Shown here in pieces: positions 10,801 to 63,766 of a DNA stretch of 64,000 nt. The notes under the pieces were generated by a model. The model made no database searches. It was not told where the DNA came from and saw only the letters and a program-made list of their open reading frames with translations. Position 1 is the first letter of the stretch, and each line of letters opens with the position of its first letter. The DNA is from Pocillopora damicornis (lineage: Eukaryota), in assembly GCF_003704095.1 (NCBI RefSeq), contig NW_020844867.1, positions 62,001 to 126,000 of the forward strand, given 5' to 3'. A program made the position numbers and the translations under genes.

Positions 10801-11864
10801 TGAACATCGACCGACCGACCAACTGACTCTCCATTTGATTAACAAAATAGTTGGTGAACCGACTGGCCGAATGACCGACTTTATGACTGACACACTGGCT
10901 GAATGGCTCACTGATCACTTAACTGACTGACTATCTATTAACTGACTGACATAATTACTGGCTAACCGATCAGCTGGCTGATCTACTACTGACTGACTGA
11001 ATTACTGAATGGCTGACTGATTAAGTAACTGACACATTGATTGACCGACTGTCTGCCCGACTGACTGACTAACTGACTGCATGAATGACTGGACGCCTGA
11101 CAGACTGACTGGCTGACCGACTGACTGACTGTATGACTGATTGACTGACTGGTCGACTGACCGACTGCCTGCCTGACAGACAGACAGACTGACTGACTGA
11201 CGACTGACTGACTGACTGACTAACTGCCTGACTGACCGACTGGCTGTCTGACTGACTGAATGACTAAATAGCTGTCTGGCTGACTGACTAAGTGACCGAT
11301 GCACCGATTCATAGAGTGACTAACCGCCTTGGCTTTCAAATTGTAACAAGGAAAGGAATGGTGTTCCAATAGCTTTTTTTCTTACCTCTGACAGATGGCT
11401 TAAAGGAAGCAGCCACCCTAAATCGACTGTTTATCAGCTTCAGTTCAAAAGATTTGGCGTGGACTAATGAGAACCTCATTTCAATTTTTGAGAAGCACTC
11501 GATAGCTTACAGCATTCATAGCCGGGACTTTGAGCTTGGAAAGCCGATAGTCCAAAACATGGCGGACAATGTGTATGGCAGCCGTCAGGTTTTGATCGTT
11601 TTATCCCAGAATTACCTTGCCAGTAATTTCTGCCGGGAGGAGCTGCACATGGCTGTCCAGAGGGGAATAGACTCGGGAGATTCGTCGCTAATTCTTGTGA
11701 TGATTAACAACTTGAAGAAAAAGCAACTACCGGCTGCTCTGAGAAATAAAAAAATGTTGGACTTTGACAAACATAAGAAGAAACAAGATTGGGAGGAGAA
11801 AATACTGAGCGAAATAGTCGACGGCCAAGGTCAAGCTGCCGACTCGTACACTTCTAGGTTCTAA
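4815..11864 (+). CDS. IL-1 receptor-like Ig-TM-TIR protein (paralog 1)
   Basis: Exons, all joined in phase 1: 4815-4911 (MEGAKHQNPNKYLKLCLLNRLWLCYLFFQQIR, signal-peptide-like); degenerate Ig1 exon from 7461 (skipped or ending at cryptic donor 7505/7595); 8407-8718 (Ig: KCCFSG..VHWYRNG..EGFYEC); 9420-9743 (Ig: LTC..ILWY..DEGNYSC); 10381-10458 (S/T/P stalk); 10546-10671 (TM WLLPVIIISAATLTVIIMSLV, then RLLVKKK); 11395-11864 (TIR: LFISFSSKDLAW, IHSRDFELG, VLSQNYLASNFCREEL). 468 aa if exon 2 is skipped. Confidence 0.85.
7655..7800. mobile_element. Non-autonomous DNA transposon fragment interrupting the Ig1 exon of paralog 1
   Basis: Similarity to the paralog-2 Ig1 exon stops after SSGSSV (~7650) and is replaced by attatttatcaccgcgggg..gaggattt..ggatcagtcgtcgccaacaaagtat, which I recognise as a common anthozoan MITE end. 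Right boundary uncertain. Confidence 0.5.
7951..8102. repeat. Tandem duplication, 2 x 76 bp
   Basis: cataaagtgtgactaaacatgg...gcgcgatagt at 7951-8026 and 8027-8102, one mismatch. Confidence 0.95.
8108..8265. mobile_element. MITE fragment (same family as 58752-58943)
   Basis: Shares gtgcgatagtagcgga and ttcgctctgccg.tactatcg blocks with the 58752-58943 copy; ends gaacgtctggaacacgcta. Confidence 0.55.
9012..9404 (+). mobile_element. 5'-truncated SINE with Deu/Nin-type central domain and (TTA)n tail
   Basis: cttctcgggtaaggataaaaaccgtaggcccgtctc...ggacggtcaagaacccac...agtagg...cccggtgtt resembles the Deu-domain core (recalled consensus). 3' end tataaatgc-(tta)n is typical of an L2-type tail. 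Confidence 0.6.
10810..11325. repeat. Degenerate (GACT)n microsatellite in the intron between the TM and TIR exons
   Basis: About 500 bp of gact/gacc/ggct tetramers. Confidence 0.95.
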
Positions 11865-18086: not shown

Positions 18087-21000
18087 ATGACAAATCTAGC
18101 GAAAAGCTCCGGTCTCTGCCTGATTGATGTTCTTTTGCTGAGTTTTCTGTCATCTTTGATGATTCAAGGTATGTTTAATGGTCACGACAGCTAACATTTA
18201 GATTCCTGATTCCGGATTCCTGATTCCTCTTGTAAACGTCTTTTTGTTTTGTTTCGTTTTTTGTTTATTTGTTTCTTTGCTTGACCGTTGCACATCGTTA
18301 AGACATTAAAATAATGAACGCAGGCATAATTTTATATCTGTTCCCAGATAAAATATAAAAAAAGTTCCCTCACCTTACATCACTTAATAAGAACTTGTAA
18401 TCCAGACACGTGATGAAAGCCTTCGATGAGATCATGATATCTCAAAAATAAATTTTAATATTTCAAATACAAAAATAGTGTCATAAAAATGGGGCTTCTT
18501 TCCTTACTATATTTCATGACTGTTAGTTAATTTTTTCTCCCGGTTATACAGCTTACCTAAGCTTCATTCGGAAAAGAACATTTTTTTAAATTCATGTACC
18601 GGGCAAAGCCATGACTGAGTCACCCAGCATCATTAATGCACAGACGTGCCTTCGCTTCATCCAATTTATTTAAAGATTTAATTTGATTTTAGAAAGATAC
18701 AATGTCTGACTTTAAGTAAATAAGTTGAAGCTACAGAGGTCCTTGTAACAAGAAATTGAACATGAGAAACTTTGTACTTTGTATTATTCAGAACTGAAGA
18801 TTACAGAAGAACTGTCGAAACATGTTTTTAAAAAGTGTCTTTCATTTTCTTAAATTCGTTACATCTCTGCTACTATTCGGGCCTTTCATATTTTGAAAAT
18901 GAACCACATGTTAATTTTGTCTCGTCTGCAGTTTTTTAGATGCAACAACGTTCTTCAGAAATAAAAGAACGAACAGTTTTTTCGGACAGACTGTTAAGAG
19001 ATTGTACAGAGCAGAAATTGCGATACATTTAGTTAAACTCGGTATGATAAACATTCCCGTTATATAAACTACCCTAGAAATGTTCACGCTCGTCGTATTA
19101 CGGCTCAGCTTCTAAGCCATCTGTAAGATGCAATGCACAGGACCAAGATATCAACCGCTGACATACCTCATTGAAAGGAAGGTCACAAAAGCATTTTTGA
19201 TTAACAGCGAAAATAACCAGACTTGCCATGAATGAACCCACTTAAGCCGAACGTTTTTGGTCTTTGAGTATCTTTAAAGAGAATGGAATAAACTGGTGGT
19301 GTTCCGATACCTCTACATGCTACCAAGATACTTAATGAAATCCCATGCAGGATCGGTTTCACATGCATCCTGCCTTCGTTTAGGAATAGCAACGATAAAA
19401 CGTTTTCTTTTATGAAACAGGTAACAAAAGTTCTCTCACCATGTTAGAAAAAAGGATAAGATAGTAAAAAAGAGTATATCATGACTGAGTTGTAGCAATG
19501 CTGAGGAACAAAGAAACGTGGGGTAAAAAATTGTTTGACAAGAAGTACGTGACTTGCTCTCCAGGGCTGTCCTTCGTCATCCAACGTCGGTGGAAGGAAA
19601 AATTAATACCTCTCTCTTTAATTTGTTGTCGCCTTTAAGTCCGAGGCAATTATACTCAGAGATATCTTTCAATTAACTGACAAATACAACTTGAACTACG
19701 GGTATGATGAATCCTCTTTTCCAGTTCCAGCAAGCTTTACAAGAAATCGCCATTGTTTTACGATGATAACGGAAAAAGCATGGCGGGTATCCTTAAACGC
19801 CTGCCTGCTCTCTTTAAGACTAACAAAGAATTGCTCCGAGGAATTTGTCTCTATTTTCTGTGTTCCACATGTATGGCAATACCATATATAACAACGCCAC
19901 TTTAATTCAGCCACGAATTACATAAAAATTAAACACAATACTATGTGTATGAATGAATGTGAACATTTTTTCGTTTTGCTAACACACTGCTTAAAGCAGA
20001 TGAAACAGAAATACCGTGTATAATAACAGACATATTTAGAGACATGTGAAAGCGGGCAGATTCCAGGTGCAAGGAAGACAGAACTTAAAGCGAACCTGCA
20101 AGCAAGGTTTTCAGAAAGATCATCCATTAAAGACTGACATAAGCGTTGGATGTACTGTAAGTCCAAAAGCAATTGCCAGAGAACAAAGTTGCTTCTCTTC
20201 AAGAACCGGCAATAACTAAACATTTTCTTGTATGGCGCAGAATCCTGGAATATGACGAAGACCATATCAGCCACACATTACGACTTCAACACGGACAAAG
20301 TGTGTAATTCATTAAGAATTCCGGTTTTAATTAACACATGCGCAATGAGGCGCTAGAATTACCCAGGGACACTGGACACCACTAAGTATCCTAGCGACCG
20401 ATTGCAGATTCATCAAAATAAATTGACTGGCTTAATCGATCGCAAACCTGTTTTGATCGCATGAGCTAAACGTACGGTTGACTAAAATCGTGATGGCACT
20501 TCCACAAACTGTGGGCTTCAAAGCTGAAGCAGTCGATGAAGAAGGAGTTTGGTGTACGTGCACTGTTGAAGAAGTAGACGATGATTACGTGATCGTTTCC
20601 TTTGACGGCTGGAATGAGTGGAATCGCCGCGTTTGTGATCCACGAGAGATCAGGGATCGAACATTGCCTGATCGGAAAAGAAAGCGAAGAAACCCCTCCC
20701 TTCAGTGAACAATGTCTTCGCTTTAAGGAGACCGAATTTTACTTCTAAATATCAAGCGACTTCTTGCTGAGTAAGAAGTCTCCTAGAACAGATGCCTGAG
20801 CAGAAGAATCTCCGAAGATGAGCTGCGCAGAAGAACGGGTACAAATCCAATCACCCAGAAAGTTCGGAGAAGAAGATAGAGATCGATCGGCACCGTGATC
20901 CGAATGCTACCATCAGTTCTGCTCAGAGTCGCCCTCCGACGACCGACGAACGAAAGGCAGTCCCAAGGAAACATGGAGAGAGCCGTAGAAAGGGAAATGA

Positions 21001-23422
21001 GCGACAGAGGCAGAACATGGGGATAGCTTGACCGTCTGGCAACCGACAGAATTCGATGGTGTTCTCAGGCTTTGGCTTAATGCGTAAAGACGTTCGCAGA
21101 ACACTGACTTCTAACTAATACAATACATAATAGAACACGTACCATCATGGCAGTCGGGACGTGTCTTTATGTCTTCCGCATTTCCATAACGTTTTTCGTT
21201 CCCTTCGTTTTTCTCTGTTGAGCGCACCGAATAGTGCTAGGAAGAAAGTTATTCCCAGATAGTTAGAACATTTGTTCATGAATTCGAGTTAAATTTGAAC
21301 AAATTCCACCTTGATTTTCCATCTACATCGGCGTGATCCAGCCGCCATTTCGTTCCCTTACCTGACTTACCTACTCTACGATTCACACAGCCTCCCTTAA
21401 CCTAGTGGAAGTCAATTTTGTGTGTAGTGGTGATATTCATCCTCAGCCGGGAAAGAAAAAAAAGTCGGAATTGTACTGTGCCCCTCTATTCATTTCATTA
21501 CTGCGTTTCAAAATATACCATCTTTCTCATGTTCTACTTACTAACACGAGAATTGCGACATTGCTGATCGTATGAATATTCAGGATGCATGATAAATAGT
21601 TGACAAAGAGTTTTTGTGGCTCAGTGGAAGCGCATCGGGTAAACCGTGCATCGGAGCGCGGTTTACGAAGGTCTAGGCATTAAGACTTGGCAGTTTATCT
21701 TTGCCTAACGCCATTATTTTCTCTTCCAAATTCTTGTTTCCGAAAATACAGATGCGTCATCCGCACCAAGCACAAAGTGCGAAATAAAGTCTTCCTGCCC
21801 CCTGTCAGCGGGCTGCCAATTCACCAATCAGATGATAGTAGACCCAGGCTCCACTATTCCAACCAACTGCTCCATCTTCGCAGGAGGAAAGGCCAAAGTC
21901 GTGACCTGGAACCAAGCGAAACAGCGAGTTGGTACAAGTAATGGCGGCGTATCAGATCTGGTTTTGAAAAAAGTGAGTTCGTCGGCGAGTGGAAGTTATT
22001 CATGTGAATGCACCTCTGTCAATTTTACACGTAAGTATACCTCTCTATTAACGTCTGTTTTTCAACCTTTAAAGGAACACTGACACATTGCCTCAAATGA
22101 ATTTCCTTGTTACTTCAATATTCGGCATAGGAGTCGAGGTGGCTTAAGGATTTTTGTGCTTGACGTTGGATCGAAAGTCTGGATTGGAGACCTGGGCCCA
22201 GTTGTATAAAAGGGAAGATAACGCTATCCAACGGATAATTCGTTATCCAGCGGATAAGTGATAGAAAACGTACAGCGTTATCCACCGGATAGAGATTCAT
22301 TTAGTGGATAGTGTTATCCGACCTTTAAACAAACGAGTCCAGGCCAAGTCATTGTGCTGAGTTCTTGGGCAAAAAACTTGAATATTACAGTGCTTCCCTT
22401 GTAACAGGTGTTTAAATGAGTATTAGTGAACTGTCATTCAGGGAGGAGTAGTAATACTCCTAGTCGCTTAAAGAAATGAATAAGATCCGGCTGGATGGGT
22501 CACTTGCCTCGTGTACAGGCTTTTCCTAATTTAACTTTCATCAAGAGATAACTACTCAGTAACTTTATACATCTTATTTTATCCAGGCGATCTTCAAGTC
22601 ATTATGGGTAGTAGTACTCCGAATATCATTAAAAAACACAAAACGATTGACTTAAAATGCTACTTCTCTGGATGGCCCCTTCCTTCCAACGTAGAATGGT
22701 ACAAAGAGCAATGGCTGGTCAGTAACGTGACTTATAAACTGATCACAAATGGAACCAAAGGAATGTACCAAGAGCAAAAACAAACGCGGTGGAATGGTAT
22801 AGAAACGCTTCGTAGCATTCTCCATCTACCATCAGGAACCGAAGACCAAGAAGGATTCTACACCTGTAAGGCAAAGAGTAATATTGCAGGCTGGTCTAGT
22901 AGTGCATCATATACCATACAGATGATCTACGAATGTAAGTAATTTTCCGACTGCGATAAGAATAGCCTCTCTTCATGGCTAATCTTTTAAAGCTGCTCAA
23001 TAGACACTGAAAGTTCCCTTTAAAATGTTTCCTGAAACCCAGCCAAAATTATTTCCGTATATGACTAACCAAGAAGCATTTATTTTTATTTAGGTCCATT
23101 GCCACAATCCCCGACTGTTTCTTCCTCACAAATCTCGGCAAGCAAATTCTCGAATATCAGCCTAACATGTTTAGTTGATACCGATGAGAGTGGCTGCCCA
23201 GAGGAGCTTTACTGGTTTAAAAACAACGACCAAACATCCTTGGCGAGCGGCGGAAAGTACAACATAGCATTGAAAAACACTCACACCAAATGCCAACAGG
23301 AATTCATTCTGACAATTTTTAACGCAACCAAGAATGATGATGAAGGAAGGTACAGTTGCCACTGGATGTGCGAGTATGAAGACACGAAGAAAGCTTTCAT
23401 TGACCTCAAAGTATCTGCTTGA
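18087..23422 (+). CDS. Secreted three-Ig-domain protein, TM/TIR-less paralog of the IL-1R-like gene (paralog 2)
   Basis: Exons 18087-18168 (MTNLAKSSGLCLIDVLLLSFLSSLMIQ, signal peptide), 21752-22030 (Ig1: TNCS..VTW..DLVL..GSYSCEC), 22587-22934 (Ig2), 23094-23422 (Ig3, ends DLKVSA-TGA). All introns are phase 1 GT-AG; 345 aa. Ig2 and Ig3 align clearly with paralog 1, including extra cysteines. Confidence 0.8.
18794..18826 (+). ncRNA. Minimal hammerhead-ribozyme-like motif, probably in a Penelope-like relic
   Basis: CTGAAGA-t-tacag/aagaa/ctgtc-GAAAC-at-GTT: core boxes, stem II with one mismatch, palindromic stem III (acatgt). Confidence 0.4.
20150..21110 (+). mobile_element. Decayed RTE-clade non-LTR retrotransposon 3' end, split by a 494-bp insertion
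   Basis: Translations KSK..QRTKLLLFK..IFLYGAESWNMTKTIS (20160-20275), then NRCL..ISEDELRRRTG..RVALR..GSPKETWR..VEREM..RGRTWG..LATDR..W (20770-21060), match the RTE ORF C-terminus; stops and frameshifts present. Confidence 0.75.
20493..20708 (+). CDS. Small Tudor/MBT (Royal-family)-like ORF with NLS, inside the insertion in the RTE relic
   Basis: 71 aa MALPQTVGFKAEAVDEEGVWCTCTVEEVDDDYVIVSFDGWNEWNRR...RKRKRR. The G.K.EAVD...V..V....V.V.FDGW pattern is characteristic of MBT/Tudor folds. May be a captured fragment rather than a functional gene. Confidence 0.5.
   Translation: MALPQTVGFKAEAVDEEGVWCTCTVEEVDDDYVIVSFDGWNEWNRRVCDPREIRDRTLPDRKRKRRNPSLQ
22130..22523 (+). mobile_element. tRNA-derived CORE-type SINE containing a nested MITE
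   Basis: Decayed tRNA head, core gttcttgggcaaaaaactt...cagtgcttc...gtttaaatgagta, tail ggagtagtaatactcctagtcgctt...gatgggtcacttgcctcgtgtacaggcttt. Confidence 0.65.
22195..22340. mobile_element. MITE with ggataa/ttatcc subrepeats nested in the SINE
   Basis: Imperfect TIR ggcccagttgtataaaagg / cctttaaacaaacgagtcc; repeated tatccaNcggata palindromic units. Confidence 0.7.
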
Positions 23423-24323: not shown

Positions 24324-26198
24324 AGTAGTTCAGTTATATTGCCGTGATTTTTTATGAGGATAACTTCCCTATCAATATATGATGTATGATTAGGCAATTT
24401 GATGTTGCTTGTTTGAAGCTATCTGAGTTTCCACTTCCCATTATAGCATTTCAGTGTTTGAGCGATGTCATACCGTTGCTTAGAGTTAAGTGTATGAACA
24501 CGGCTTTGAAACAAAATGAAAAAATTTGCAGACAGCATTTCAAAATACCTGTAAAACTGAGTCTTCGAAAGCGATAAAGATGCTAAAAATGAAATATTAC
24601 CAATACTTTACAATAAAATACTTGCTTGATTCACCTTTTACGATGACCCATGTCGACTCTACACTGTTCATTTATTCTGCATCTATTTTACGGACATAAT
24701 GAATAGCTCAGTAAACACCGAAAAAAAACAGCAGAAACATAACTAATTCATATTATTGAATTTTCAACTTAGCGGAAATTGCATTTTTATTAATCGGATT
24801 GCTTCCCTACGCTGCGGTTATCAGCTCACGTACCAGGTCACCAAAAATAGAAAATTATTCACTCAAGTGTTGCGACTGAAGCTGACTTTACTTTTGGCCG
24901 CGAGCAAACACTTCTCCCGTGCACTGGAAATAAAGTAAAACAAACTTTAGTCAATGTTATCTTGATAACAGAAGTAGAAGCCACATGAAAAAAAAAAAAA
25001 AAGCCAGATGAAATTGTTTTGGGAAGAGCTTTGGAACGAATCAAGAAGTTAATGTTGGAAGCAAGTGGCAAGAACTTGACCACAGACCTGGATATCGTTT
25101 CTCGGCTGCAAGAGTCGTTTCGTGAAATAGTAAAGGCACATCCCGATGAAGGAAATAACTTTACTGAGAATCTGTTGCACCATTTGATTATCGAAACTAG
25201 CTTCTTTCTTTAATGGCGAGGCTAAGAAAATAAAGCAGTCAGAAGTTCCCATCTTCGTCATCCTTTTGTTTACTACTTACTGTGGTTGTTTACCAGAAAT
25301 AGAAAAAAAAAAAAGGCTCAGGTGTCGTTGGCCTATGTGCGTTCTTGGCTCCCCGTGAAAAGAAGTGTAAATTTAATTTCATTGGCAAATCCATGCCATC
25401 AATTAAATTTTCCTTCCATTAAGTAATGCGTCTAACTAACTACTTACAGATCGAAGAAGCCCACACAAAAAGTTTCTTTGTGTAGGAGAGTTATGTGCTG
25501 TCGTTGGAGATTGGGAACAGAGACCTTACCATATGACAACGGTAACGGGGCCGTCGTTTGCTGTCGGCGTTTCCTCCAAAATTTTACATTACATTATTGA
25601 TGAGGTCGAGGTAGAGGTAACCCTTACCGAGACCTTGATTATTCTGGATATTACAGAAACTAAATCTAAAAATTGCTTTTTTCATACATTGAAGGAAAAA
25701 AAATGGTTACGACCGTAAGTGGAACTGATAATTTATTTCTAAACTTGTAAAAATATACTAGTCAGCAGCACATAATCCGATTTACAAAAAAGTCTAAGCG
25801 TGAGAAAAATTGAATAAAAGCTGGTTGAGGAGGTAAATAGCAATAAATAAGTTTAACTGAAGAAAACATTACAATTGTAGAGAGCGAAATTCAACTAATT
25901 TTTCAATGTCTTGCTCGTTCAAAGAAGCAAATGGTCATGTATTTGCTTCCTCACTGACGGCAAGCATCACCCTTAGAAATCATGCACCGCAGTCCTACGT
26001 GACACGATTAGCCTTGACCTTGAGTGACCTTGATATGATGATTATCTTATCTGCAGCTAGATGACGTCCCAGGCTCTAATTTAGAAAATTTCCTTTTGGC
26101 TTTCGGCCAATCTGAAAAGAGATAATGAGTTAATTATATAATAATCCAGCTAACCAGCGCCTGCGTGACAAGAATCCTGTCACGCGGTAATATCATTG

Positions 26199-27388
26199 GG
26201 GAGTTACTACATCACAGGCGACGAGCAGGGGATGAGGAAATGACCGAAATACGAGTGGTAAGCGGGGAAACCAATTTAATACTTCATATAGAGACATATC
26301 AGTTGTAGTTGCAGAAAACGATAGTGTTGTAAAGCCGAAATGTTAACAGTATACTTCGCTAAATAAAATGTTACGCAATTTTTCAAAAGTGTTGATGGCA
26401 CATATATCTTTCACTGCTGTAATAAACAATAGAGGCATCGGTGGCATCCGGAAAGGCACCAAGAAGAATTATATTTACGTTTTGTAACTTGCAAAAAACA
26501 ATCGTATTGTAAAAAAGCCAAAATGTTACCAGGTTAATCACAGTCGGTTTGCTTTTCACTTGAATTTTGCAATCTCGACTTTCGATTCCGGAAAAATGAA
26601 AAGCTAAGCAACTCTAAAAAAATTTCGTGGTAGATTTTTATATTTTTAGAGTCATTAATAAGTTTGTTTCCACAGCCTTTAGATAAGAAATTTTANNNNN
26701 NNNNNNNNNNNNNNNNNNNNNNNNNNNNNNNNNNNNNNNNNNNNNNNNNNNNNNNNNNNNNNNNNNNNNNNNNNNNNNNNNNNNNNNNNNNNNNNAACTG
26801 GTGAGCAGCACTCTACGAACGGTAGTTGTAAAATTTCTTTATTCTCCGATGCGTTTCTTTTAACTGTCGTAAACTTCACAATTTAACACTAAACACGTGT
26901 ATTTGTAGGCCATAGTTATAGTTAGTGGCTATACGGAAGCCAATGACTATAAAGGCTTGGCCGGACCTACGAATAGGAACAGGTGAAGTTGCGGAAAATT
27001 TGAAAATTTTTTGGGGCAAGGTGGGAGAATTCATTTGGGGACCACGGTTTTGGTTTTCTTTTTTCTTCTCTCAGCAAGTAGTTACAAAACGTAAATATAA
27101 TTCTTCTTGGTGCCTTTCCGGATGCCACCAATGCCTTTTCCGATGCCTCTATTGTTTATTACAGTAGTAAAAGATATAATATTATTTGCCATCAACACTT
27201 TTGAAAAATTGCTTAACATTTTATTTAGCGAAGTATACTGTTGATATTTAGGCTTTACAACACTATTGTTTTCCGCAACTATAATTGATATGTCTCTATA
27301 TGACGTATTAAATTTGTTTCCCCGCTGACCACTCGTATTTCGGTCTTTTCTTTATCCCTCACTCGTCGCCCGTGAAGTAGTAACTCCC
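26199..27388. mobile_element. Mutator/MULE-like non-autonomous element with ~290-bp TIRs
   Basis: 26199-26492 is the reverse complement of ~27073-27388 (gggagttactac...gtagtaactccc). Flanks atatcattg / atatcatgc form an imperfect 9-bp TSD. The interior contains a gap. Confidence 0.75.
26696..26795. other. Assembly gap (100 N)
   Basis: Run of N. Confidence 1.
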
Positions 27389-27599
27389 ATATCATGCCGC
27401 CGGCAAGCGATTAGCGGAGCGTGACCTCTGGGGACGAGATTATAAAACAATCAAACACCATGGATACCATTTGTATGGCGAGTAATCGAGACGAACACGT
27501 CTCCAGGTTGAGTCAAAAATTCAAAGGAAAAGCTGCGTGAATGTAAGTAATACTACTTTGTGTACGGCTCAATGCCACCTTTTCCTTACTAGCGCGCTT

Positions 27600-27870
27600 A
27601 ACAGTAGATGTAGGTAATCAAAGGTTAAGTTTCTTAAGAAATTGTACTGCAGCGTCGGTGGTGTTGTATAACAAGATGATTTGTTTGTGTCAACTGAGTT
27701 AAGAATGTGAATTTGCCACCGTAAAGAGTTTCAAAGCTTTCAGAGCGTTAGTCCTTCGCCAGAGCGAACCACTCTAAGGGACAACGCTCGAAACATCAAC
27801 TGTGTAACTCTTTACGGTTGCCAATTTATTTACATTATCAACTTTGTTGATAAAACCAAATTATCTTGTT
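27600..27870. repeat. Palindromic Penelope-related repeat with decayed hammerhead-like motifs on both strands
   Basis: ccaccgtaaagagttt...gagcgttagtccttcgccagagcg mirrored by aagggacaacgctcgaaac...aactctttacggttgcc. Tail acattatcaact..gttgataa.accaaattatcttgt is shared with 42265-42420. Confidence 0.55.
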
Positions 27871-29104
27871 AAGGTAAACAGATGATTTCGAATGCAATTT
27901 GGGATAAAATCAGCACAATTAAATTCTTTAAGAGCGACCCAAATTGCACAAGCCCTCTGTGCGAGTGTAACTTTTTGTTCTAAAAAATTTAGTAGTGCTG
28001 ATTTATTCCAAACAACACGAGAAAAATTGATGTGATTACTTTTAAATAACATACATGCAAAAATCTGTCTCTGTTTTCCTCTTAGCCGTGTTTATGGTTC
28101 ATTGGTGCTGCCGAGTAGAGTTGTTGCCGAAATCGACGTCGAATTCCCGCAAGAATTCGCTTCGAGCTTTTAACTTTCTGTCGCGAATAATTGTGTGTTT
28201 GCACTCTTTCGCGGTAAGAATTCGCTTGATAGCAGTAACCAGTTCACGAAGACTGTTACGCTCGTAATTAATCTCCATCTTTCAGGTGTACGGACTGTTG
28301 CGTAAACGCCGAGAGGATTTTGTTCAGCGCGCTTCATACGTCTTAATACTTTCGACGTAGTCGTTTTTGGAAACCAAAAACTTCCCGACTGTTAGCTGAT
28401 GCTTCGTGCTTAGCTGGGTGTTTTTTTTTGGATTAAAACGTTGTTACTTTCTCCTAACCTGTCCTTCGCGACTCTTCTGTCAATCAATTTAATTTCAGGT
28501 TTCTGCACTCAATTTCAACTTTTAGCGCTGTTTGTGATTAATTGCCGTGTTCTCATCAAATGAGAAAGCTAAAATTTTTGCGTGCACATGATCTAACAAT
28601 TATTCACCGAAGGCGAAGTGAATATTATTGAATAATCCCCTAGACGAATAGTCCCCCCGGGATTTTAGAGCCTGAGGTGAACAATTGTCTTTGTATAATT
28701 GCTCAGGTGCTTTCGAATTCTGATGTAAATTCTGTACATGTAAAAAGCATTGCGCATATTTTGTTACAATTCTGATGATTACTCGTATCAAGATACTGCA
28801 AGCAGTTTTAACAGGTTTTATATAATTTAGTCAGCAGAAGCTTCACGTCTTTAATTGAAAAATGGTCCGCCAAACTCAGTAGCATCTTTTGTGCTCTGCG
28901 AAATTGAATTTACTGTCATAGCGTTTATCGCCGCCTCGGATACGTTGACAAAACGCAAGGCAGCCATTTGTAAATTTAGCGCTACTGTTATATTTACCGT
29001 ACACGAGGTGATTTTCATTGTAAGACTTTGAGTTTTCTTCCCCCGCAGCTGTGAAAGCGCTCGGCGTATTGATTCCACTTCATCTCCTCTAGAGGCCAAA
29101 TCAT

Positions 29105-32100
29105 ATGGGCTCCTGTCGTTCAAAAATGGCTACGGATCAACAGGCTTCAGGTCCAAACACAGAGGAACAGAATGCCAACACGGCTCCAGGACCTCAAAAG
29201 AAGGTACAGAAAAAATAAAATTAGTAGAACAGCTATGCCGGTACACTTGATGGAATAGATTTAATGGTAAAGGATGATTGCTTCAGTCAATTATACAAGA
29301 GTAACCTTATTACTGACTCAAAAGTTCTTCTTCGAGGCTGGGTTGTTCGAATCCAACGCAAGAGAGGATTTTCTTTTGCCCAGGGTTTATGTTTACTTGA
29401 TTTGTAGAAATATTCACGAATTATTCAAAGAGAAAACAGTAATGAAGAAGTCCTCGATTTTATCTCGGCACTTGTGTCTTGCTGATGTCGAACCTGTGGC
29501 GGCTTCGTTTTCATTACGCGTTACAAAATTTTTCTAAGCAGTGTTGTGTTTGTTAGAACGAGCCAGTTGTTAAAGATTCTTGCTAATAAATTTGCTGTTT
29601 ACTGTAGCGGTGTGGAAATGTGATCGATGAACTTAAGATTGAGGTCCGTAGATTAGGTTGCAGAGCGACTTAATCTCTTATCTGTTGAGGAAAAGGGAGA
29701 TTTTTTTATAGCTCAGTGCTTTAGGTGGTAGATTCTATCTTACGATTGGTGTCAACAGCTGAATTGATCTTTCCCGCGAAACTAGGCGAGCGGAATCATT
29801 TCGTTGAGTTCCTGAGTAATTTCTTAGTCAGTTGTGATTCGGTAATCTTGCCTTTCCTTCTCCATGTAAGGTTATCAACAGGTCATATATTTTTTTAGTT
29901 GCTTTCGGTCCAATTCTCCTGTTCCGGTCATTTTGCCAAGAGTAAATTGATATTACGTTGATTACGCCAATGGAATGTTTTAGTGTTTCTTATGGTGTGT
30001 ATAGTTGTGTATAAACTCGACGTTGAAAATACCAACTCGACATATCAGTGAGAGTGATATGTTTAGATACCGTTTCCACCTCCATTGGCTATGAAATCAG
30101 CATTAAAAATACCTTGACATTTCTTTAGCATTATGGTGCAAAGATCACAGTTGCAATTCATCGCTTTAACCGCGGGACCAATAATATTCGTGAACTGTTT
30201 AGGCAACCAGTCCTCCTTGAAAAAGATACTCCTACGTATACTGAAACAGTAATAATCGCCGCACTTTGTAATAAAATTGTCAGACTTGGGAGATCACTAG
30301 TGCTGTCACTATTGCAACAGCTTTTTTACTACAAAGTGCGATGGTCTGCTATAACAAAATGCGATAGCTTTTGCTATTACAAAGTACGACAGTAAATGTT
30401 AATCAATGTTCATACAACAAGGTCGAAAGCGGATGAGGAAAACGATGCTTTGAACGAGCCGGATTGGCGGAAAACCAACACCTTTCGAATTCGAGAAATT
30501 AACATGTCATTCCGCGTTGTTGAGATTTTCAGACTATGAAAATTGAATTATTCAGTGCGTCATTCATAAGTATTACCGGGTTCTTACTGCACACTTTAAG
30601 TTAATCGTTTGTCTCACATGTCAACACATTTATAGGGTGATCCGTCCGTGATCGATGCCTAGGATGGTAATATTTATTTCGAGACAACTGACGATTTCTA
30701 TATGGTATAGTTCTTTCTTAGTCTAAGAGGGTCAATTTAGTAGATTTAGTTAGTTAAACATATTGAAGTTTTGCAGTGACATTGGCTAAGATGTGTATGT
30801 GTAAGTTCGTCTAAGTTACAATCTACTGATAAGGCCCCGTGAAAACTGAAGCAACCGACCCAAACATCGTTAGTAAACTATAACTGAAAAATAAACTGAA
30901 AAAAAAAAACCTTTTACCAAAACCAATAAATAGAACATACACGATAATAACTTCGTTATCTTGATTTAATCGTTTCTGGTTTCGTTTTATTTATTATAGA
31001 TAAAATTCAAATATTTTCGTTACGGTAATTACTAGATTTCTCGTTATCTTTTCGGACACATGCACCAAGGCTTTTCATGTCTGTTTTCTCTCCATTAGTC
31101 CTGAACTCTTTCACAATTCCTGCCGATGATTTTTTTGTAAGCTTCTGCAAGTGTCTACTTTCACATTAGGCGAAAGTCCTCGGCAAGCATCAGTCAAAGG
31201 ACCTGTTGAATTGACAGAGATGTTATTTTTGTTACGTGCGTGACGTCAAGTCACGTTATCGCAACGTCTGTTTTCCTCAAAAAGTGTATCTTTCTCTTAC
31301 TATTCCTGTGGCTGACTGTTCACAAATGTTTTTCTCAATTGAATAATCAATAGACATTTTGGCCAAAACACCGGTGTTTGTGAGTGCCTCTGTGGTGGAC
31401 ATTTAATTAAAACTGGGCACATTTAATAAGCTTACCACCATATTTGGTGTTAAAGATTGGACAGATTTTAAAATATATTCCATATAATTACTATCGCATC
31501 AGTTTCCTTCATCTAGTCAGACATCGCGAGGCATTCAGAGATCTGTTGCGAAATATCTGCCCAACAATGGCTTCAAATCCACAAAATAAGGTAGCAAAGT
31601 AACACTAACTTAAGTTTTGACATTTGTCTCACAAAAGAAAGCTACAAGTCGGTTTTTCGGTTTGCCGCCTAAGTAACAGCTCAAGTCCTAATTTCCTCAT
31701 CTAGTCGAATAGGGAAGTTTTTCACAAATCTAAAGCAATGGATTGTACCTGTTTCATATTTGGTCATTTTGCAATTGTTTTTGAAAAGTTAATATACGTT
31801 TATTTTATTCGAAATTTTAGTAGAACTCACCAACTTTTGGTTACAAATAGCGAGGGAGTTAATTTGTTTTGTTTTGTTTTTAACTGAATGCAAATCTACG
31901 TTGTCACGACATTATTCAGGGAATGCCATGAAAAGCGTTCGATGCGGAATTGCTGGGTAGTTTACATGGCCAAGTAATTTTCTCTTCCTGCCCAAGGAAT
32001 CCATTTATATAGCCTTGTGCCTTTCATGCCTCGCTATAGACCTCGGTGTCTCTTCGATTCAGTGGATAAAAATATGATTATGGCCTGACGTGATCGATCA

Positions 32101-33962
32101 ATTTTGCATGGGTGCCTCCAGATTAAAAAATCTAGAAAATTTTTTAGCGATTTATTTTGCTAGTTCCTATCTTTTGAGGTCCTCATGAGTGGTAATCGGT
32201 ACAACAAAATGTATTAGTTATTTTGGTAAACAGAGACGCTCGGTTTCATTTCTTATCATCTTTGTGATCACTAGAATCAGACTGTTTGAAGGTTCAATGA
32301 TCCGTAACATATGGGGATCATGCGTATTTAAGTGTTTAAAAACTGTCTGCCTTAGCGATCGGAGTCATTGAATCAGAGCAGCAGGAGATGCCTCATCGAA
32401 AATATCTCAGCCCATTTTTTTTCGTAAATCACACAGTCCACAATTATTACAGCAAAGAGTCCACATTTTTGCAGAATGCAACTTTCGTAGTGAAAATCAC
32501 AAATATGGGAATTTGTGTATTTTGCTATTTAAATCTCCCCGATGGGTAACTACGCTACTCCACAATTCAAGCATAAACATAATTTTATGGAATCCAGGAA
32601 TACATTCGGCTTAAATATGTATCCCATATCAACGTATGGTTAAAAACGTCCTAAACAAGAAAAAAATGCAATCAAATCACTTTGAAATTATCTCCTGCTT
32701 CCCGTTGGGTGCATCCGTTCCTTAAAAATTGCAGAGCGAAATGTCTTAATGCATGTTGCATTAGCAATTAATTATAAAAATTCTTAAAAGATACAATATA
32801 TGTTTTACAGGATGGCAGTCAAACTATCGTCCAAGATAAGACCATGAAACTGGGAGACGACATTAACCTGGCTGAACAAAATGATGTCAAGCTTGATCCA
32901 AATCTCGAAAAAAACGAATACCCTGATTTATCTGGAGCGCACTCACTGATGGCTAAATACCTCACGAGGGAGATTTTCGAGAAGCTGAAGGACAAAAAGA
33001 CTTCCACTGGTTTTACCATCGCTCGAGCTGTGAACACCGGAGTGTTAAACAAGGAGAAGTCATTGACTGGTTGCCATGCCGGAGATGTTGATTCTTACAC
33101 CATATTTGGAGAGTTCTTCGATCCCCTCATTGAGGAGTATCACCGCGGGTTCAAGCCTTCCGACAATCACGTGACTGATATGGACCACACTCATCTGAAA
33201 GGCAACATCACCGACCCATCCAAGATCATATCCACAAGAATCAGGGTGGCAAGAAATATTTCTGGCTTCAATCTGGCTCCTGGACAGAATTCCAAAGAGG
33301 AAAAGCTGCAAATAGAAGCTTTGATGCTGCAAGTGTTTGCCGAGCTGAAAGATGATTTGGCCGGGCATTATTACTCACTGGTCAAAATTAGCGAGGAGGA
33401 GAGACAGGAACTTGTCAGGGAGCACTTGTTATTCAAGGGCAATGACAAGATGCAAGCTGACAGCGGATACCATCGATGGTGGCCACATGGACGTGGAATC
33501 TACCTGAATCATAAGAAGACCTTCGCTGTTTGGCTGAATGAGGGGGACCATATCCGTGTCATTTCCATTCAGCAAGGTGGTGACGTGTCCTCTGTATTTA
33601 CAACACTAGTCAAAGGGGTAAATACAATCGAAAATCTCCTCATGAAGTTAGACAACAGGAGCTTTCAAACAACAGATCACCTTGGCATGATCACATGCTG
33701 CCCAACAAATCTCGGAACTGGTCTGAGAGGCGGAGTGTTAATTCAACTACAGAAAGTTGTGGAGAAGATGGGTGAAGAGGGCCTGAAGAAATGGTCTCAT
33801 GAAAACCATCTTCAGGTGAGAGGTCTGTACGGAGAGCACTCCGACACCACAAGTGCTATCTATGACATCTCCAACAAGTACAGGCTTGGCTACTCAGAGG
33901 TCCAGCTCGTTCAGTTTGTGATTGATGGTGTCAACCAGCTGATAGAAATGGAATATCATTAA
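29105..33962 (+). CDS. Phosphagen kinase (arginine kinase-like), isoform A with N-terminal MGSCRSK exon
   Basis: Exon 1a 29105-29203 (33 codons, donor aag|gtacag, phase 0) spliced to the acceptor tttacag|32811; exon 32811-33962 has ATP:guanido phosphotransferase motifs STRIRVARN, WPHGRGI, NEGDH, CPTNLGT, RGLYGEHS, DISNKYRLG. 416 aa. Catalytic exon is certain; first-exon choice is inferred. Confidence 0.85.
31567..31590 (+). CDS. Alternative first coding exon 1b of the phosphagen kinase (MASNPQNK)
   Basis: acaATGG start context, 8 codons, donor aag|gtagca, phase 0, in frame with the 32811 acceptor (391-aa isoform). Confidence 0.5.
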
Positions 33963-36900
33963 GCTGTGAACTTGTCCTCCTTTCAACTACTTTGATTAAG
34001 TTTATTAAGAGTGTGGTGCTAGCAAAATGAACCAGAACTGTTAGGAGAGATTTGTTTCACTGGAGTGTTAGAAAACCATTTGTTGTTTTCCTAAGAATTA
34101 TAAGGCTGACAAGAACGGAGTTTTGGATCAATTCATAATTTTGTCATTGCAAGGTTCCATGATGTTTCTGAGATATTTGTAGGCCCTTGGGCTTTCCAAC
34201 AATTGTCCTGATTTTCATTCTGGTGCCTTGGTAATTGTGTGGTATTAGGTCAGGCCAACGTGTGTATACTGTGTGTTACGTTACTTATGTCAGTCATTTG
34301 ATGTAGGGTAAACAATCGCGTGTTACTAAAATAAATGCGTAATCTTGCAATTTTCACTGCACGACCATTTAGTCCGCCACTCGTGAACACGTAGAAGAAA
34401 TTAAAAACTATGAAATAGCCGCCAACAACTTCACAATTTATCGGTTCATCGGTAAAATCGAGAGAGACCTTAGACCTTTCGGCTTTTCCGTGTAAATTTT
34501 GTCTCCAAACTCCCCTAGGGGAGGGTAAGACTTTGGCCCATGTGTATATTTGATAGAGTACAACGTTTGTGGGCCTTTTCATCGTATTTATGAACCAGTC
34601 TTAAGATCGCAAAATGACTCAAAGAGCCTCACTTATATAGAAAATTGATTCGGAATGGTTTCTGCTTTGGCAAGGATATATCCCTCTCTCCCCTTCAAAG
34701 GTACTAGTCACTACCCTAAACCTCTCTGATCCCGAAAAGGGTGAGGAAAGAAAAGTACGGGTTGAGAACAGGTCGGGGTCGACATGTTTTCAATTGGCTT
34801 ATGCTAAGCTGCAACGTATGCTAGTTTGCTCAGTCAGCTGAAAAGTTTTCGTTATATGCCATAACGAGATTATAGGTAATGAGTTAAAGACGTGAGTAGA
34901 CAAAACTAACCTCTTAGTCGGTGACTAACGACCTTTGGAAGAGCCAAGTCATATGGACAATAAGTAAGCCGAGAAACAGGTGAACTTTGACGTTGATTGA
35001 AGAAGCTTTAATGTTCGGTGTCGATTGTTGTTTGGTAAAATACGTGTGATTTCGCTAATGTTATTGTCATTTAAAATAGGTTAGAGTGAAAACAAAACAT
35101 TCCTTAACTGTTTTCTTAGGCTGCAAATTAATGTACACAATTAAGTTTTACGAGGCAGTTACCTAAAATATCTTGTTGAAGCTTTTTTTTTTCACTGAAC
35201 TCCTGGATCTCTCCAAAGTAAAACACTAAATTTGACAACCAAATTGAGACTTCGATTCACACGATGTTACCATCAGGCTTTAAAAGCCTTAGAAATAACA
35301 TGGTACAATCTTGAAGATATATCGTTTTAGTTTACTTATCAAACAATTAAAATAAACAAATTAAACAGTAGAACAGACATTGAAGTAAAGAAGACTGACG
35401 TACACAAAAACTATAACTTTGGCAGGAGCACTCTCAAATTCTTTAGAAATTCCTTGCAGTGTTTCTGTTCTCAGCTCAGGTGTAACGAGGAACTGCATCA
35501 TTGCAGGTCAGTAAAGGTCTTAAAACCTTCTGTGAATTTAAAGGCGAATCGTAAACCATGGTTGGTATAAAATCTGAAGCTCAGGTATCCGCAGCGTCGA
35601 GAATTTAACTTGTAAACAATAATCCCGGATAGCTTTGTGCTTTGTGGCTTTAAACTCTTCATCAAAACACCAGCATTTTTCACTCTCGTCAGAGGTTAAT
35701 GCGAAAACCAGACGTTTTTAATACAATTTGTTTTGTGAGCTTTGCCCATTTTTGTTCATTTTCTAACCGTCTTTTTCCAATTAATGAAATGATTTATTCT
35801 AAGCTGCATTCTTAATTACCATCCTCATAATTAAGCTGACAAACTTTGTACCTTGTGAAATTCCGCGCGGCTAAAACGAGATAGCTTCAGTTTATAAATC
35901 AATTCAGGCCGGGATGTGTTGACGAGACATTTTTTCCTGGTGGGACATCAAAACATTACTCGACATAAGATATTTCATCATGCAGCTGATAAGTGATTAT
36001 GGTTATCCTCTAAGGTTTTGTGGTTGAAGTCCTCAACAAATCCTTGACAAACTCTCGAAGACATCGCGCTTACGAAGAAGCAGTACATTTGAGGTAAGTT
36101 GTGTAAACATATCCTGGCAGAGGAAGGAACTTATTGTTGAAAACCCAAGGAGAGTAACATTTATTGAGTTAAAGGTCATTCATGTCTCGAAGATTGACTA
36201 ACTTCTTGGGGGTAATGCGCCTCAAGCGCTGTTGGCGAAGGACTGCGCAGATCCACTGTTTATCTCAGTTAGGTTTCTAAATTGCCCTCAGCATCGGTGA
36301 AAATTCAACAACAGGGCAGTTTGAAACTTTTTAAAGAGTTCTGAAGTTCTTAAGCTAATGACAAATCGGAAAAAAAAACTTGCATCGTTTCCTGAAGCTT
36401 CGGTACTAAATAATCACTGATCAACACAGGATGTGCAATAACTGATTGTAGCAGTTTCTTGTCACAACTTTTTGAAGTAATCTCGGTAAAAGCCGATTCT
36501 GCTTGCATAAGTATACAGCTAAAGATGGTGAATGCAAATATCAAAATTTAACCGAGTTTACTGTCGCTCGACTATTGATTTGATAGAAAGCTTAGGAGTT
36601 GATAAGTAAGAGTGAAAATGCTTGTGGCCATCAAGAAGCTACGGGCTCTTGCCAAAGTAGCCGAAACTGTTCGATGACGCTCGAAAATTTGCAATACAGG
36701 CCGGGCCTAGCCGGTGTGTTTTTCTGTCGTCTATTCTTAACTATCCTTGTTCAGTTCTCTTTAGAATTTCCTACATCGGGGACGAAAATTTTATTCAGAT
36801 GTTTCCTTTATTTGAAGTTACTTTTGATTTCCACTTGCAAAAAGTGATTCAAAACAACACTTTTGAGGTCCTGTTTGGTGTCATGACATTGTACACTATT

Positions 36901-63100: not shown

Positions 63101-63766
63101 GAAAGATATCAAGACATAAGAGATGGCTGAGGCGTTTTCAGATAGCGATACCATTTGATTTGTGTGTTTTTTTACGTCAATTATCTTGCAGATAATCAAC
63201 TTCTTTTTCAACCTGATCATGGAGAGAAGCAACCAACAAGGAAATGTGAAAGTGCACGCCTTTAATTCATTCTTTTATCCGAAACTGATCAAATCAGGAT
63301 ATGCCAGCCTTAAACGGTGGACGAAAAAGGTAAGGAACATGATTTTGTGCGTGTTTCTTCTCCACGAATTGTGGTCACCTTAGTTAGTCCAATTTAGCCC
63401 CTTGTGCTGCGAAAAGATAACCTGGTCAATGTTTTCAAGAGATTGTCGATTGATATTTTGAAGCTGCTTTTGTTGTTGGTATTTATTTAATAACAAATAC
63501 CTAGTGAGTAGTCAGGCGCGATTGTGCACAAGCCGCGCGTCTACAAGCCTCGGAAACCGATGAGGACCCCCCAAGGGGAGGGGTGCTTTTGGAGCATTTG
63601 TAACAACTGTTTTAATAGTTTATTTAGTTCTACACCCTTTGGTAATAACAATTGTTTGAAGTGTTTGGTTTCATTCATTTTGTATTTGATGTTGTTGTAG
63701 GTGGATATTTTTGCGATGGACGTGGTACTTGTTCCTATTCATCTAGGGATGCATTGGTGTCTCGCG
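51161..63766 (+). CDS. SENP1: Sentrin/SUMO-specific protease, SENP1/SENP2-like (Ulp1/C48 peptidase), 3'-incomplete
   Basis: 17 phase-compatible exons: 51161-51249, 51629-51665, 52158-52194, 52923-53134, 54437-54623, 55058-55257, 56464-56624, 57737-57915, 58402-58444, 59030(or 59036)-59092, 59545-59629, 60652-60684, 61260-61316, 61937-62002, 62505-62621, 63192-63329, 63701-63766. Motifs EERDRYRQL, FVPLTDEM, LNWLNDEIINFF, VHAFNSFFYPKL, KRWTKKVDIF, VPIHLGMHWCLA (catalytic His). Asp and Cys of the triad lie beyond the window. Confidence 0.9.
54213..54405. mobile_element. piggyBac-like MITE (TTAA-ccct ends); partial copy at ~56270-56380
   Basis: ttaaccctt...agagggtgaa ends, ~190 bp, non-coding, intronic. 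Confidence 0.55.
57307..57515. mobile_element. piggyBac-like MITE
   Basis: ttaatccttcaact...agttctaaggttaa; TTAA at both ends. Confidence 0.55.
58524..58720. mobile_element. piggyBac-like MITE (opposite orientation to the 57307 copy)
   Basis: ataaccctt...agttgaagggattaa; right end is the near reverse complement of the 57307 left end. Confidence 0.5.
58752..58943. mobile_element. MITE with agcctg...caggct TIR
   Basis: agcctgttcaaggtgttcagt / actgaacacccaaatcaggct; internal hairpin gatagtagcgg...ccgctactatc. Confidence 0.7.
59668..60274. mobile_element. Foldback-type MITE with ~110-bp TIRs made of gtcagttcgcaaacgt subrepeats
   Basis: cggtcgtttcgccaacggt...gttataaacattta mirrored by taaatgtttataac...accgttggcgaaacgaccg. 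Confidence 0.8.

What the first reader, a model, noticed from the sequence alone, without database searches (positions are those of the whole stretch)
29105..32843. Two alternative first exons give a myristoylated/palmitoylated or a cytosolic phosphagen kinase
Seen: exon 1a encodes MGSCRSK-MATDQ..QKK and exon 1b MASNPQNK. Both end AAG|GT in phase 0 and fit the same acceptor at 32811; an in-frame TAG (29090) precedes the 1a ATG. The first ATG context is weak and a second ATG (29126, aaaATGg) is strong, so leaky scanning could add a third, non-acylated form. Established: M-G-x-x-x-S-K is the N-myristoylation consensus, a nearby Cys is often palmitoylated, and myristoylated phosphagen kinases occur in cilia and flagella (sea-urchin flagellar creatine kinase). 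Inference: one gene may supply both membrane-anchored ciliary/sperm and cytosolic ends of a phosphagen shuttle through promoter choice.
Basis: partly seen in the sequence, partly recalled or inferred. Interest (0 to 1): 0.72.

Follow-up and report, generated by a model that had tools for sequence, protein, structure and literature searches.

The report
Coral energy kinase, anchored or free
One coral gene for an ATP-buffering (phosphagen) kinase is spliced into two forms, one with a short leader predicted to carry fatty-acid membrane anchors and one without; the enzyme belongs to an unusual branch, closest to protist sequences, that lacks a normally conserved active-site glutamate, so what it phosphorylates is untested.

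Summary
RNA contigs join both 29203 (exon 1a) and 31590 (exon 1b) to the acceptor at 32811. The two products match RefSeq Pocillopora isoforms X1 (416 aa) and X2 (391 aa), so the isoform pair is already annotated. Correction: 1a is not simply a first exon. In 4 of 7 RNA-type runs it is spliced from an upstream non-coding exon ending at 27542 that carries a short upstream ORF. The pairing of an MG-acylation start with an MA soluble start recurs in other stony corals and in an octocoral, which supports a selected membrane anchor. Ciliary or sperm targeting is not shown: the leader fails the UNC119 high-affinity rule and lacks a lysine patch. It lies outside the coral's canonical arginine and creatine kinases, nested among foraminiferan and ciliate-code sequences, in a larger group that also holds marine-bacterial genes. 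Substrate is untested and gene transfer is possible. Verdict: a known targeting trick (as in Drosophila ArgK1) on an odd enzyme lineage; moderate interest.

The parts
27399..27542 (+). Exon 0, non-coding upstream exon spliced to exon 1a (5' end uncertain; contigs stop near the edge of a repeat that ends at 27395)
   Evidence: Joint 27542>29049 GT..AG in X3 and X14; loose ends in X1 (144 letters) and X10 map to 27513-27542; donor GTAAGT; single copy in the genome
27460..27540 (+). Upstream ORF in exon 0: 26 codons from a strong-context ATG (21 from ATG 27475), stop just before the donor; a TATAAAA lies at 27441
   Evidence: effect on translation inferred
29049..29203 (+). Exon 1a: acceptor at 29049, coding 29105-29203 (MGSCRSK leader plus disordered linker), second in-frame ATG at 29126
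   Evidence: matches RefSeq X1 with 3 differences in 416 aa; pLDDT below 50 for residues 1-40
31526..31590 (+). Exon 1b: coding 31567-31590 (MASNPQNK), soluble-type start; 5' edge estimated from bin depth only
   Evidence: Joint 31590>32811 in X3, X9; product identical to RefSeq X2, 0 differences in 391 aa
31241..31504 (+). Possible promoter elements of exon 1b: TGACGTCA at 31241 and TCAGTT at 31499 (consensus matches only)
   Evidence: TCAKTY occurs 247 times in the window, TGACGTCA at 3 places, so weak evidence
32811..33962 (+). Single coding exon for the whole ATP:guanidino phosphotransferase body (383 aa plus stop)
   Evidence: Pfam PF02807 and PF00217 above cut-off; fold match to CK/AK transition-state structures, TM about 0.78
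33537..33548 (+). NEGD in place of the NEED motif (Gly278 at the Glu225 position)
   Evidence: NEGD in all 23 aligned relatives
33963..34354 (+). 3' UTR; AATAAA at 34330, X1 contig ends at 34354 (X10 runs to 34515)

Best explanation
This is one coral phosphagen-kinase gene that splices either exon 1a or exon 1b onto a single catalytic exon, giving a long form predicted to be myristoylated at Gly2 and palmitoylated at Cys4, and so likely tethered to membranes, and a short form predicted to be soluble. Shown: both splice forms, the upstream non-coding exon 0 feeding exon 1a, conservation of the MG/MA pairing in stony corals and an octocoral, the kinase fold, and membership of an NEGD clade apart from the coral's canonical arginine and creatine kinases. 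Inferred: the choice is made by two promoters (near exon 0 and near exon 1b); the disordered 40-residue linker lets the anchored enzyme regenerate ATP beside membrane ATPases while the short form buffers the cytosol; the upstream ORF and the weak first ATG tune how much anchored enzyme is made; the substrate is most likely arginine (about 0.55), bound without the usual Glu225. General plasma or endomembrane anchoring is favoured over cilium-specific targeting (about 0.3).
For: Splice joints. Identity with RefSeq X1/X2, and two RefSeq accessions for the same X1 protein, as two 5' UTR variants would give. G2-S3-C4 is invariant and position 6 is S/T in 6 of 6 robust-coral MG forms while the linker has indels. 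Paramuricea CAB3988482/CAB3988483 have 0 differences in 379 body residues but MASNK versus MGCLQTK starts. The 3' ends of 1a and 1b align at DNA level (0 of 500 shuffles reach the score; part of this is splice consensus), pointing to exon duplication. Residues 1-40 are unstructured in the model. Cys271, Arg280, Arg309, Glu314 and Tyr89 equivalents are kept (numbering of these positions recalled except Cys271). The NEGD clade holds Sulfurovum and ciliate-code sequences, matching the 'cluster A' arginine kinases summarised in PMC11492440 section 3.1. Precedents: Drosophila ArgK1 (PMC13215054), T. brucei AK3 (bioRxiv 2020.05.07.083568).
Against: No acylation, localisation or activity data exist for this protein. 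No start site could be mapped (contigs only). Exon 1b was seen in only 2 of 7 runs, with short sides. The upstream ORF and the strong second ATG could make the acylated form minor. Glu225, Tyr68 and Gly64, which bind arginine in canonical AK (PMC12387690), are Gly, His and Leu here; Asp62, Arg193 and His284 (recalled numbering) also differ. The link to characterised cluster A enzymes rests on a review's species list, not on their sequences. The three MG leaders seen in Anthozoa do not align beyond the motif, so the pairing may be convergent, not ancestral.
Confidence: 0.7

Rival explanations
1. The long form is a dedicated ciliary or sperm-flagellar kinase, delivered by the UNC119/ARL3 route or by a dual-lipid ciliary signal.
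For: N-terminal myristoyl plus palmitoyl signals can target proteins to cilia (PMC6678300, passages). T. brucei AK3 needs Gly2 and Unc119 for flagellar location. 7 of the 99 loci translated, besides anthozoan L026, carry an MG-acylation-type motif ahead of the catalytic core, two of them in ciliate code. The Oculina leader MGSCTTK fits the small-residue rule.
Against: Arg5 in the window protein, and the octocoral and MGLFP leaders, break the human UNC119 high-affinity rule. There is no lysine patch (2 basic residues in 25). No RFX X-box match lies in 26800-32900. Form 1a is the one assembled in nearly every library laid, so it is not a rare form, though tissues are unknown. Separate creatine kinases exist in the genome.
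Confidence: 0.3
2. The enzyme is not an arginine kinase but uses another guanidine (taurocyamine, hypotaurocyamine or an unknown one), giving corals a third phosphagen system in two compartments.
For: Three arginine-contact residues are changed, the guanidine-specificity loop is one residue longer than in its relatives (KSLTGCH), and it shares CCP, RGLYGEH and the His284-to-Leu change with Schistosoma taurocyamine kinase domain 2. The genome already has a canonical two-domain AK.
Against: The Tyr89 equivalent is AK-like. The clade appears to include species whose enzymes are reported as arginine kinases (PMC11492440, section 3.1). The shared motifs with taurocyamine kinase are few.
Confidence: 0.3
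3. Most protein from exon 1a starts at the strong second ATG, so both transcripts make soluble enzyme and the MG leader is a minor or vestigial form.
For: First ATG lacks a purine at -3, second has A at -3 and G at +4; a strong upstream ORF lies in exon 0.
Against: The seven-residue leader is more conserved than the linker after it across pocilloporid-type sequences and Oculina; none of the RNA variants listed falls in codons 1-7 (10 rows hidden); the first ATG has G at +4.
Confidence: 0.12
4. The protein is a catalytically dead or weak pseudo-kinase with a binding or scaffolding role.
For: Loss of the Glu225 position; recalled, not checked here, that Glu225 substitutions cut canonical AK activity strongly.
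Against: NEGD is fixed across a large clade from bacteria to corals, the ATP-binding arginines and catalytic Cys are kept, and the body is about 80% identical between stony and soft corals.
Confidence: 0.08

Closest known systems
RefSeq Pocillopora 'arginine kinase-like' isoforms X1 (XP_058958532.2, XP_058958540.2) and X2 (XP_027041478.1, XP_058958549.1)
   Same: The same two proteins: X2 identical, X1 with 3 differences.
   Different: Automatic annotation only; nothing on acylation, the NEGD active site or origin.
Drosophila ArgK1 (PMC13215054, passages read)
   Same: One gene, alternative N-terminal exons on a last exon that holds the catalytic domain, different locations.
   Different: There the leader is mitochondrial and shown by experiment; here it is an acylation motif, predicted only, on a different AK lineage.
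Trypanosoma brucei AK1/AK3 and FCaBP/calflagins (PMC4517888 passages; bioRxiv 2020.05.07.083568 section 7)
   Same: Soluble versus Gly2-myristoylated arginine kinase.
   Different: Separate genes there, with a lysine-rich flagellar leader; one gene and no lysine patch here.
'Cluster A' arginine kinases of Sulfurovum, Nitratifractor, ciliates and a sponge (Suzuki 2013, seen only through PMC11492440 section 3.1)
   Same: The NEGD clade recovered here holds Sulfurovum and ciliate-code sequences.
Anthopleura two-domain arginine kinase (PDB 4rf6) and sea-urchin flagellar creatine kinase
   Same: Same fold and family; best PDB sequence score is 4rf6. Myristoylated and non-myristoylated pools of flagellar CK are known (Quest 1997, title only, in PMC3080659).
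   Different: Those are NEED-type multi-domain enzymes; the coral has its own orthologs of that kind elsewhere.

Membership tests
ATP:guanidino phosphotransferase (phosphagen kinase) | N-terminal PF02807 plus catalytic PF00217 domains and CK/AK fold | tested here: met
   (84.9 and 215.4 bits, above cut-offs)
ATP:guanidino phosphotransferase (phosphagen kinase) | CP(S/T)N(I/L)GT signature with catalytic Cys and ATP-binding arginines | tested here: met
   CPTNLGT at residue 330, RIR at 176-178, R339, R370
Canonical arginine kinase (Limulus/Anthopleura type) | NEED motif with Glu225 binding the guanidinium | tested here: not met
   NEGD, Gly278 (role of Glu225 from PMC12387690)
Canonical arginine kinase (Limulus/Anthopleura type) | Gly64-Val65-Gly66..Tyr68 arginine-binding loop | tested here: not met
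   KSLTGCH: Leu, Thr, Gly, His at these positions (alignment)
Canonical arginine kinase (Limulus/Anthopleura type) | Groups with canonical AKs in a tree | tested here: not met
   All 32 NEGD rows form a clade 100/99 apart from 11 other rows including the genome's own AK domain
Creatine kinase (cytosolic, mitochondrial, flagellar) | Long GS loop (NPGHP..TVGCVAGD), NEED, RGTGG loop | tested here: not met
'Cluster A' arginine kinases (Sulfurovum, ciliates, sponge) | Clade with Sulfurovum and ciliate enzymes | tested here: inconclusive
   Same NEGD superclade as Sulfurovum spp. and TAA/TAG=Gln transcripts, but the characterised members were not in the set
'Cluster A' arginine kinases (Sulfurovum, ciliates, sponge) | L-arginine kinase activity | not testable with these tools
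   needs an assay
McsB protein-arginine kinase | NCBIfam cut-off | tested here: not met
   best 125 bits against a cut-off of 385
N-myristoylated, S-palmitoylated proteins | Met-Gly start, S/T at 6, K at 7, Cys within the first residues (consensus from own knowledge) | tested here: met
   MGSCRSK; conserved in orthologs. Motif only; no predictor or assay was run
High-affinity UNC119 (ciliary) cargo | Small or medium residues at positions 3, 4, 5 (PMC8246649) | tested here: not met
   S3-C4-R5; the rule comes from human proteins
FCaBP/AK3-type flagellar leader | Gly2 plus about five lysines in the first 25 residues (PMC4517888) | tested here: not met
   2 basic and 3 acidic residues in the RefSeq X1 leader

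The most novel reading that the evidence does not exclude
Early anthozoans acquired from a protist an intron-free phosphagen kinase that works without the 'catalytic' Glu225, possibly on a non-arginine guanidine, and different lineages then independently gave it a switchable lipid anchor: by duplicating the soluble start exon in robust corals, by a separate MGC exon in octocorals, and in a third anthozoan by taking over the MGLFPSKSK exon that in this coral belongs to the canonical two-domain arginine kinase.
Probability: 0.2. Interest if true: 0.72.

Novelty: new variant of a known kind. Interest (0 to 1): 0.47.

Why it matters
Corals depend on membrane ATPases and ciliated epithelia for calcification, symbiosis and surface flow, yet a 2024 review (PMC11492440) states that the physiological role of arginine kinase in Cnidaria is unexplained. 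This gene gives a directly testable pair (anchored versus free, differing by one small exon). It is also a natural Glu225-to-Gly enzyme that tests how essential the proposed catalytic base is. If the tree reflects transfer from a protist, it shows a foreign metabolic gene being wired into host targeting by small exons. The two-isoform arrangement itself is already in RefSeq and has a precedent in Drosophila.

Tried and rejected
1) 'Exon 1a is a first exon': rejected for at least part of the transcripts. 2) A 22-letter piece ahead of exon 0 in X14 looked like a spliced leader or further exon; it maps once, to another contig (G000:C2176), so it was treated as a chimera, which also weakens X14's 19-letter support for exon 0. 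3) The upstream ORF's MASNRDE resembles the MASNPRDE start of Desmophyllum orthologs, but exon 0 shows no DNA similarity to exon 1b (485 of 500 shuffles score as well) and weak similarity to 1a (21 of 500), and it splices out of frame: not supported as a relic coding exon. 4) RFX X-box scan: none in 26800-32900. 5) Direct bacterial origin: bacterial NEGD genes are 42-47% identical and in another sub-branch. 6) One clade of the anthozoan enzymes with the second group of possibly animal NEGD sequences is rejected (p-AU 7e-7), but the group was named after seeing the tree and its organisms are unknown. 7) Lack of cover on exon 1b in 5 of 7 runs is not evidence of absence (contigs). Contig depth was not used to rank isoforms. 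8) The start of the multi-domain creatine kinase on C2813 was not found in 30 kb upstream with a simple motif scan. 9) ESM Atlas gave only generic AK/CK clusters. 10) Earlier scan findings: three look-ups, nothing. 11) Literature: 'arginine kinase + myristoylation + cnidarian' 0 papers; 'Pocillopora + arginine kinase' 0. Uda 2012, Matsuo 2017 and Jaiswal 2016 are not held. Matsuo 2017's title announces two cnidarian AK lineages and may already cover this one. Trees: 39 of 158 rows were dropped as near-duplicates; one search used 43 hand-picked rows; 99 of 110 loci gave a usable frame. No complex prediction was run and no supplements were consulted.
Full report
What is in the sequence. The window holds a phosphagen kinase whose whole catalytic body is one exon, 32811-33962. 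Two short upstream frames end in AAG|GT in phase 0: 29105-29203 (MGSCRSK-MATDQ..QKK) and 31567-31590 (MASNPQNK). The products are 416 and 391 aa. The short one is identical to RefSeq 'arginine kinase-like isoform X2' of Pocillopora and the long one differs at 3 places from isoform X1. The host is therefore inferred to be a Pocillopora coral, and the isoform pair is already annotated.

RNA evidence. Of 20 runs listed, 8 were laid; 7 are RNA or guessed RNA and one (X15) runs unspliced through both introns like DNA. The 1a joint (3607 bases skipped, GT..AG) is listed in 5 of 7 and implied by loose ends in a sixth. The 1b joint (1220 skipped, GT..AG) is listed in 2 of 7, from two studies, with short sides of 23 and 29 letters; the other five have no cover there, which contigs cannot turn into absence. 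Unexpectedly, 1a has its own acceptor at 29049 and is joined to an upstream exon ending at 27542 in 4 of 7 runs. Two runs begin unspliced at 28996 and 29036, which may be pre-mRNA or a second nearby start; the two RefSeq accessions for one X1 protein would fit two 5' UTRs (inference). Exon 0 is single-copy, non-coding for the kinase, and holds a 26-codon upstream ORF with a strong ATG context. It begins at the edge of a long inverted repeat ending at 27395. No joint into 1b was listed, but 163 loose-end rows were hidden. Start sites cannot be read from contigs.

Conservation of the two starts. Among anthozoan relatives with an N-terminal extension, 10 records start with an MG-acylation motif and 15 with an MA-type start; most of the other 18 look like gene-call starts at the body exon's edge (one unrelated MA record set aside). 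Pocilloporid-type records keep MGSCRS while the linker gains and loses residues. Oculina has MGSCTTK-MASKPQD and MASNPQD on two neighbouring locus tags. Paramuricea has MGCLQTK and MASNK on bodies with 0 differences in 379 residues and consecutive accessions, most simply isoforms of one gene. The 3' ends of 1a and 1b align at DNA level better than all 500 shuffles, suggesting that 1a arose from a copy of 1b plus a leader. A third leader, MGLFPSKSK, sits on this kinase in another anthozoan (P0004, L026). The same leader, similar even in its 5' UTR, lies upstream of the canonical two-domain AK in the window's own genome and splices in frame to it on paper (G000:C983). The three leaders do not align beyond the motif.

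The enzyme. Fold and family are clear. The catalytic Cys, ATP-binding arginines, Glu314 and Tyr89 equivalents are kept. But NEED is NEGD, and the arginine-binding loop reads KSLTGCH. Glu225, Gly64, Val65 and Tyr68 bind arginine in canonical AK (PMC12387690, passages). These changes are not private: NEGD with GCHAGD marks a wide clade found in metagenomes and marine bacteria. In a 43-row tree (LG+C20) all 32 NEGD rows form one clade (100/99) apart from the coral's own AK and CK domains. The 9 anthozoan-clade rows (100/99; named members are stony and soft corals) are sister to an unnamed protein and two transcripts that read TAA/TAG as Gln (96/92), then to a group holding two foraminiferan proteins (96/93; names). 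Sulfurovum and other bacteria fall in another sub-branch. This matches the 'cluster A' AKs described second-hand in PMC11492440 (section 3.1 read). Nesting among protists and an intron-free body fit a gene transfer. However, most rows are unnamed, the coral's multi-domain CK also has a 759-codon intron-free stretch, and an ancient paralog lost elsewhere is not excluded.

How it most likely works. Two promoters (inferred) give two mRNAs. The 1a mRNA, after an upstream ORF and a middling first ATG, makes a protein predicted to be myristoylated on Gly2 and palmitoylated on Cys4, hung from a membrane by a disordered linker (pLDDT below 50 for residues 1-40); ribosomes that skip to 29126 would make a soluble version. 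The 1b mRNA makes a soluble enzyme. Together they would buffer ATP at membranes and in bulk cytosol with one phosphagen, most likely phosphoarginine. Confidence: two forms 0.95, anchoring of the long form 0.8, arginine 0.55, cilium-specific 0.3.

Against the ciliary reading. Dual acylation can target cilia (PMC6678300, passages), and trypanosome AK3 is a precedent (bioRxiv 2020.05.07.083568, section 7). But Arg5 breaks the small-residue rule for high-affinity UNC119 cargo (PMC8246649, passages), the lysine patch needed by FCaBP-type leaders (PMC4517888, passages) is missing, and no X-box was found. A shuttle also needs a mitochondrial end; neither form shows such a leader by eye, whereas the genome has creatine kinases with mitochondrial-type N-terminal extensions and a multi-domain one (PMC3080659, passages, for the sea-urchin system).

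Comparison and novelty. Choosing a compartment by alternative N-terminal exons on one catalytic exon is known for Drosophila ArgK1 (PMC13215054, passages). The held library has no paper joining arginine kinase, myristoylation and cnidarians or Pocillopora and arginine kinase, but it lacks the key subscription papers (Uda 2012, Matsuo 2017; seen as reference titles only). PMC13679545 (passages) notes divergent, unassigned cnidarian phosphagen kinases; PMC6429109 and PMC7603314 were seen as passages only and add background. Verdict: real, partly mis-described, a new variant of a known kind; the unusual active site and origin are more interesting than the exon choice.

Noticed in passing
G000:C983:27839-27981 (minus strand; L025) and L026:1-250: The canonical two-domain arginine kinase of this genome has an upstream MGLFPSKSK exon (phase 2, in frame on paper). 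A homologous exon, similar in its 5' UTR too, heads the NEGD-type kinase in another anthozoan: possible exon sharing or capture between paralog lineages.
   Followed up: partly
window 26192-27395: Long inverted repeat (arms about 300 bases, 89-98% complementary, an assembly gap between them), high-copy by read depth, ending at the 5' edge of exon 0; may be a MITE-like element supplying or abutting the upstream promoter.
   Followed up: partly
window 27460-27540: Upstream ORF whose second Met starts MASNRDE, resembling ortholog N-termini; no DNA-level support for homology.
   Followed up: yes
G000:C2813, C983, C3794, C2178, C694, C2075 (L002-L020): At least seven further phosphagen-kinase genes: a multi-domain CK with a 759-codon intron-free stretch, a two-domain AK, two tail-to-tail CKs with hydrophobic N-terminal extensions (mitochondrial type), a cytosolic CK and two highly divergent copies.
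   Followed up: partly
window 7388-11864 (+): Multi-exon receptor with Ig domains, a likely transmembrane stretch and a TIR domain (IL-1R-like); Pfam Ig_3 and TIR_2 above cut-off.
   Followed up: partly
window 21709-23422 (+): Second set of Ig-domain exons resembling those at 8376-9808; possible tandem paralog.
   Followed up: partly
window 46793-48895 (+): Long single open frame for a B-box, coiled-coil, filamin, NHL protein (TRIM2/3/71-like).
   Followed up: partly
window 40532-41260 (+): Open frame with a likely signal peptide, Cys-rich repeats and a transmembrane helix; no Pfam match at E 0.001.
   Followed up: partly
window 20457-20708 (+) and 63159-63383 (+): Weak MBT-repeat match (below cut-off) and a Ulp1/SENP protease exon (above cut-off).
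   Followed up: no
L032, L038, L042, L048, L049, L054, L067; P0309: Several unnamed NEGD-clade kinases, two in ciliate code, carry MG-Cys or MG-small acylation motifs ahead of the core, so lipid anchoring recurs in this clade.
   Followed up: partly
L106-L135: NEGD-type phosphagen kinases in marine bacteria of several phyla (Sulfurovum, Desulfocapsa, Desulfuromusa, Roseovarius, Anderseniella, Pirellulaceae), a patchy spread.
   Followed up: partly
P0141-P0143 (Desmophyllum OS493_001382-001386), P0002/P0136 (Oculina): In other robust corals this gene occurs as a run of neighbouring locus tags, probably a tandem array, whereas the window's genome has one copy.
   Followed up: no
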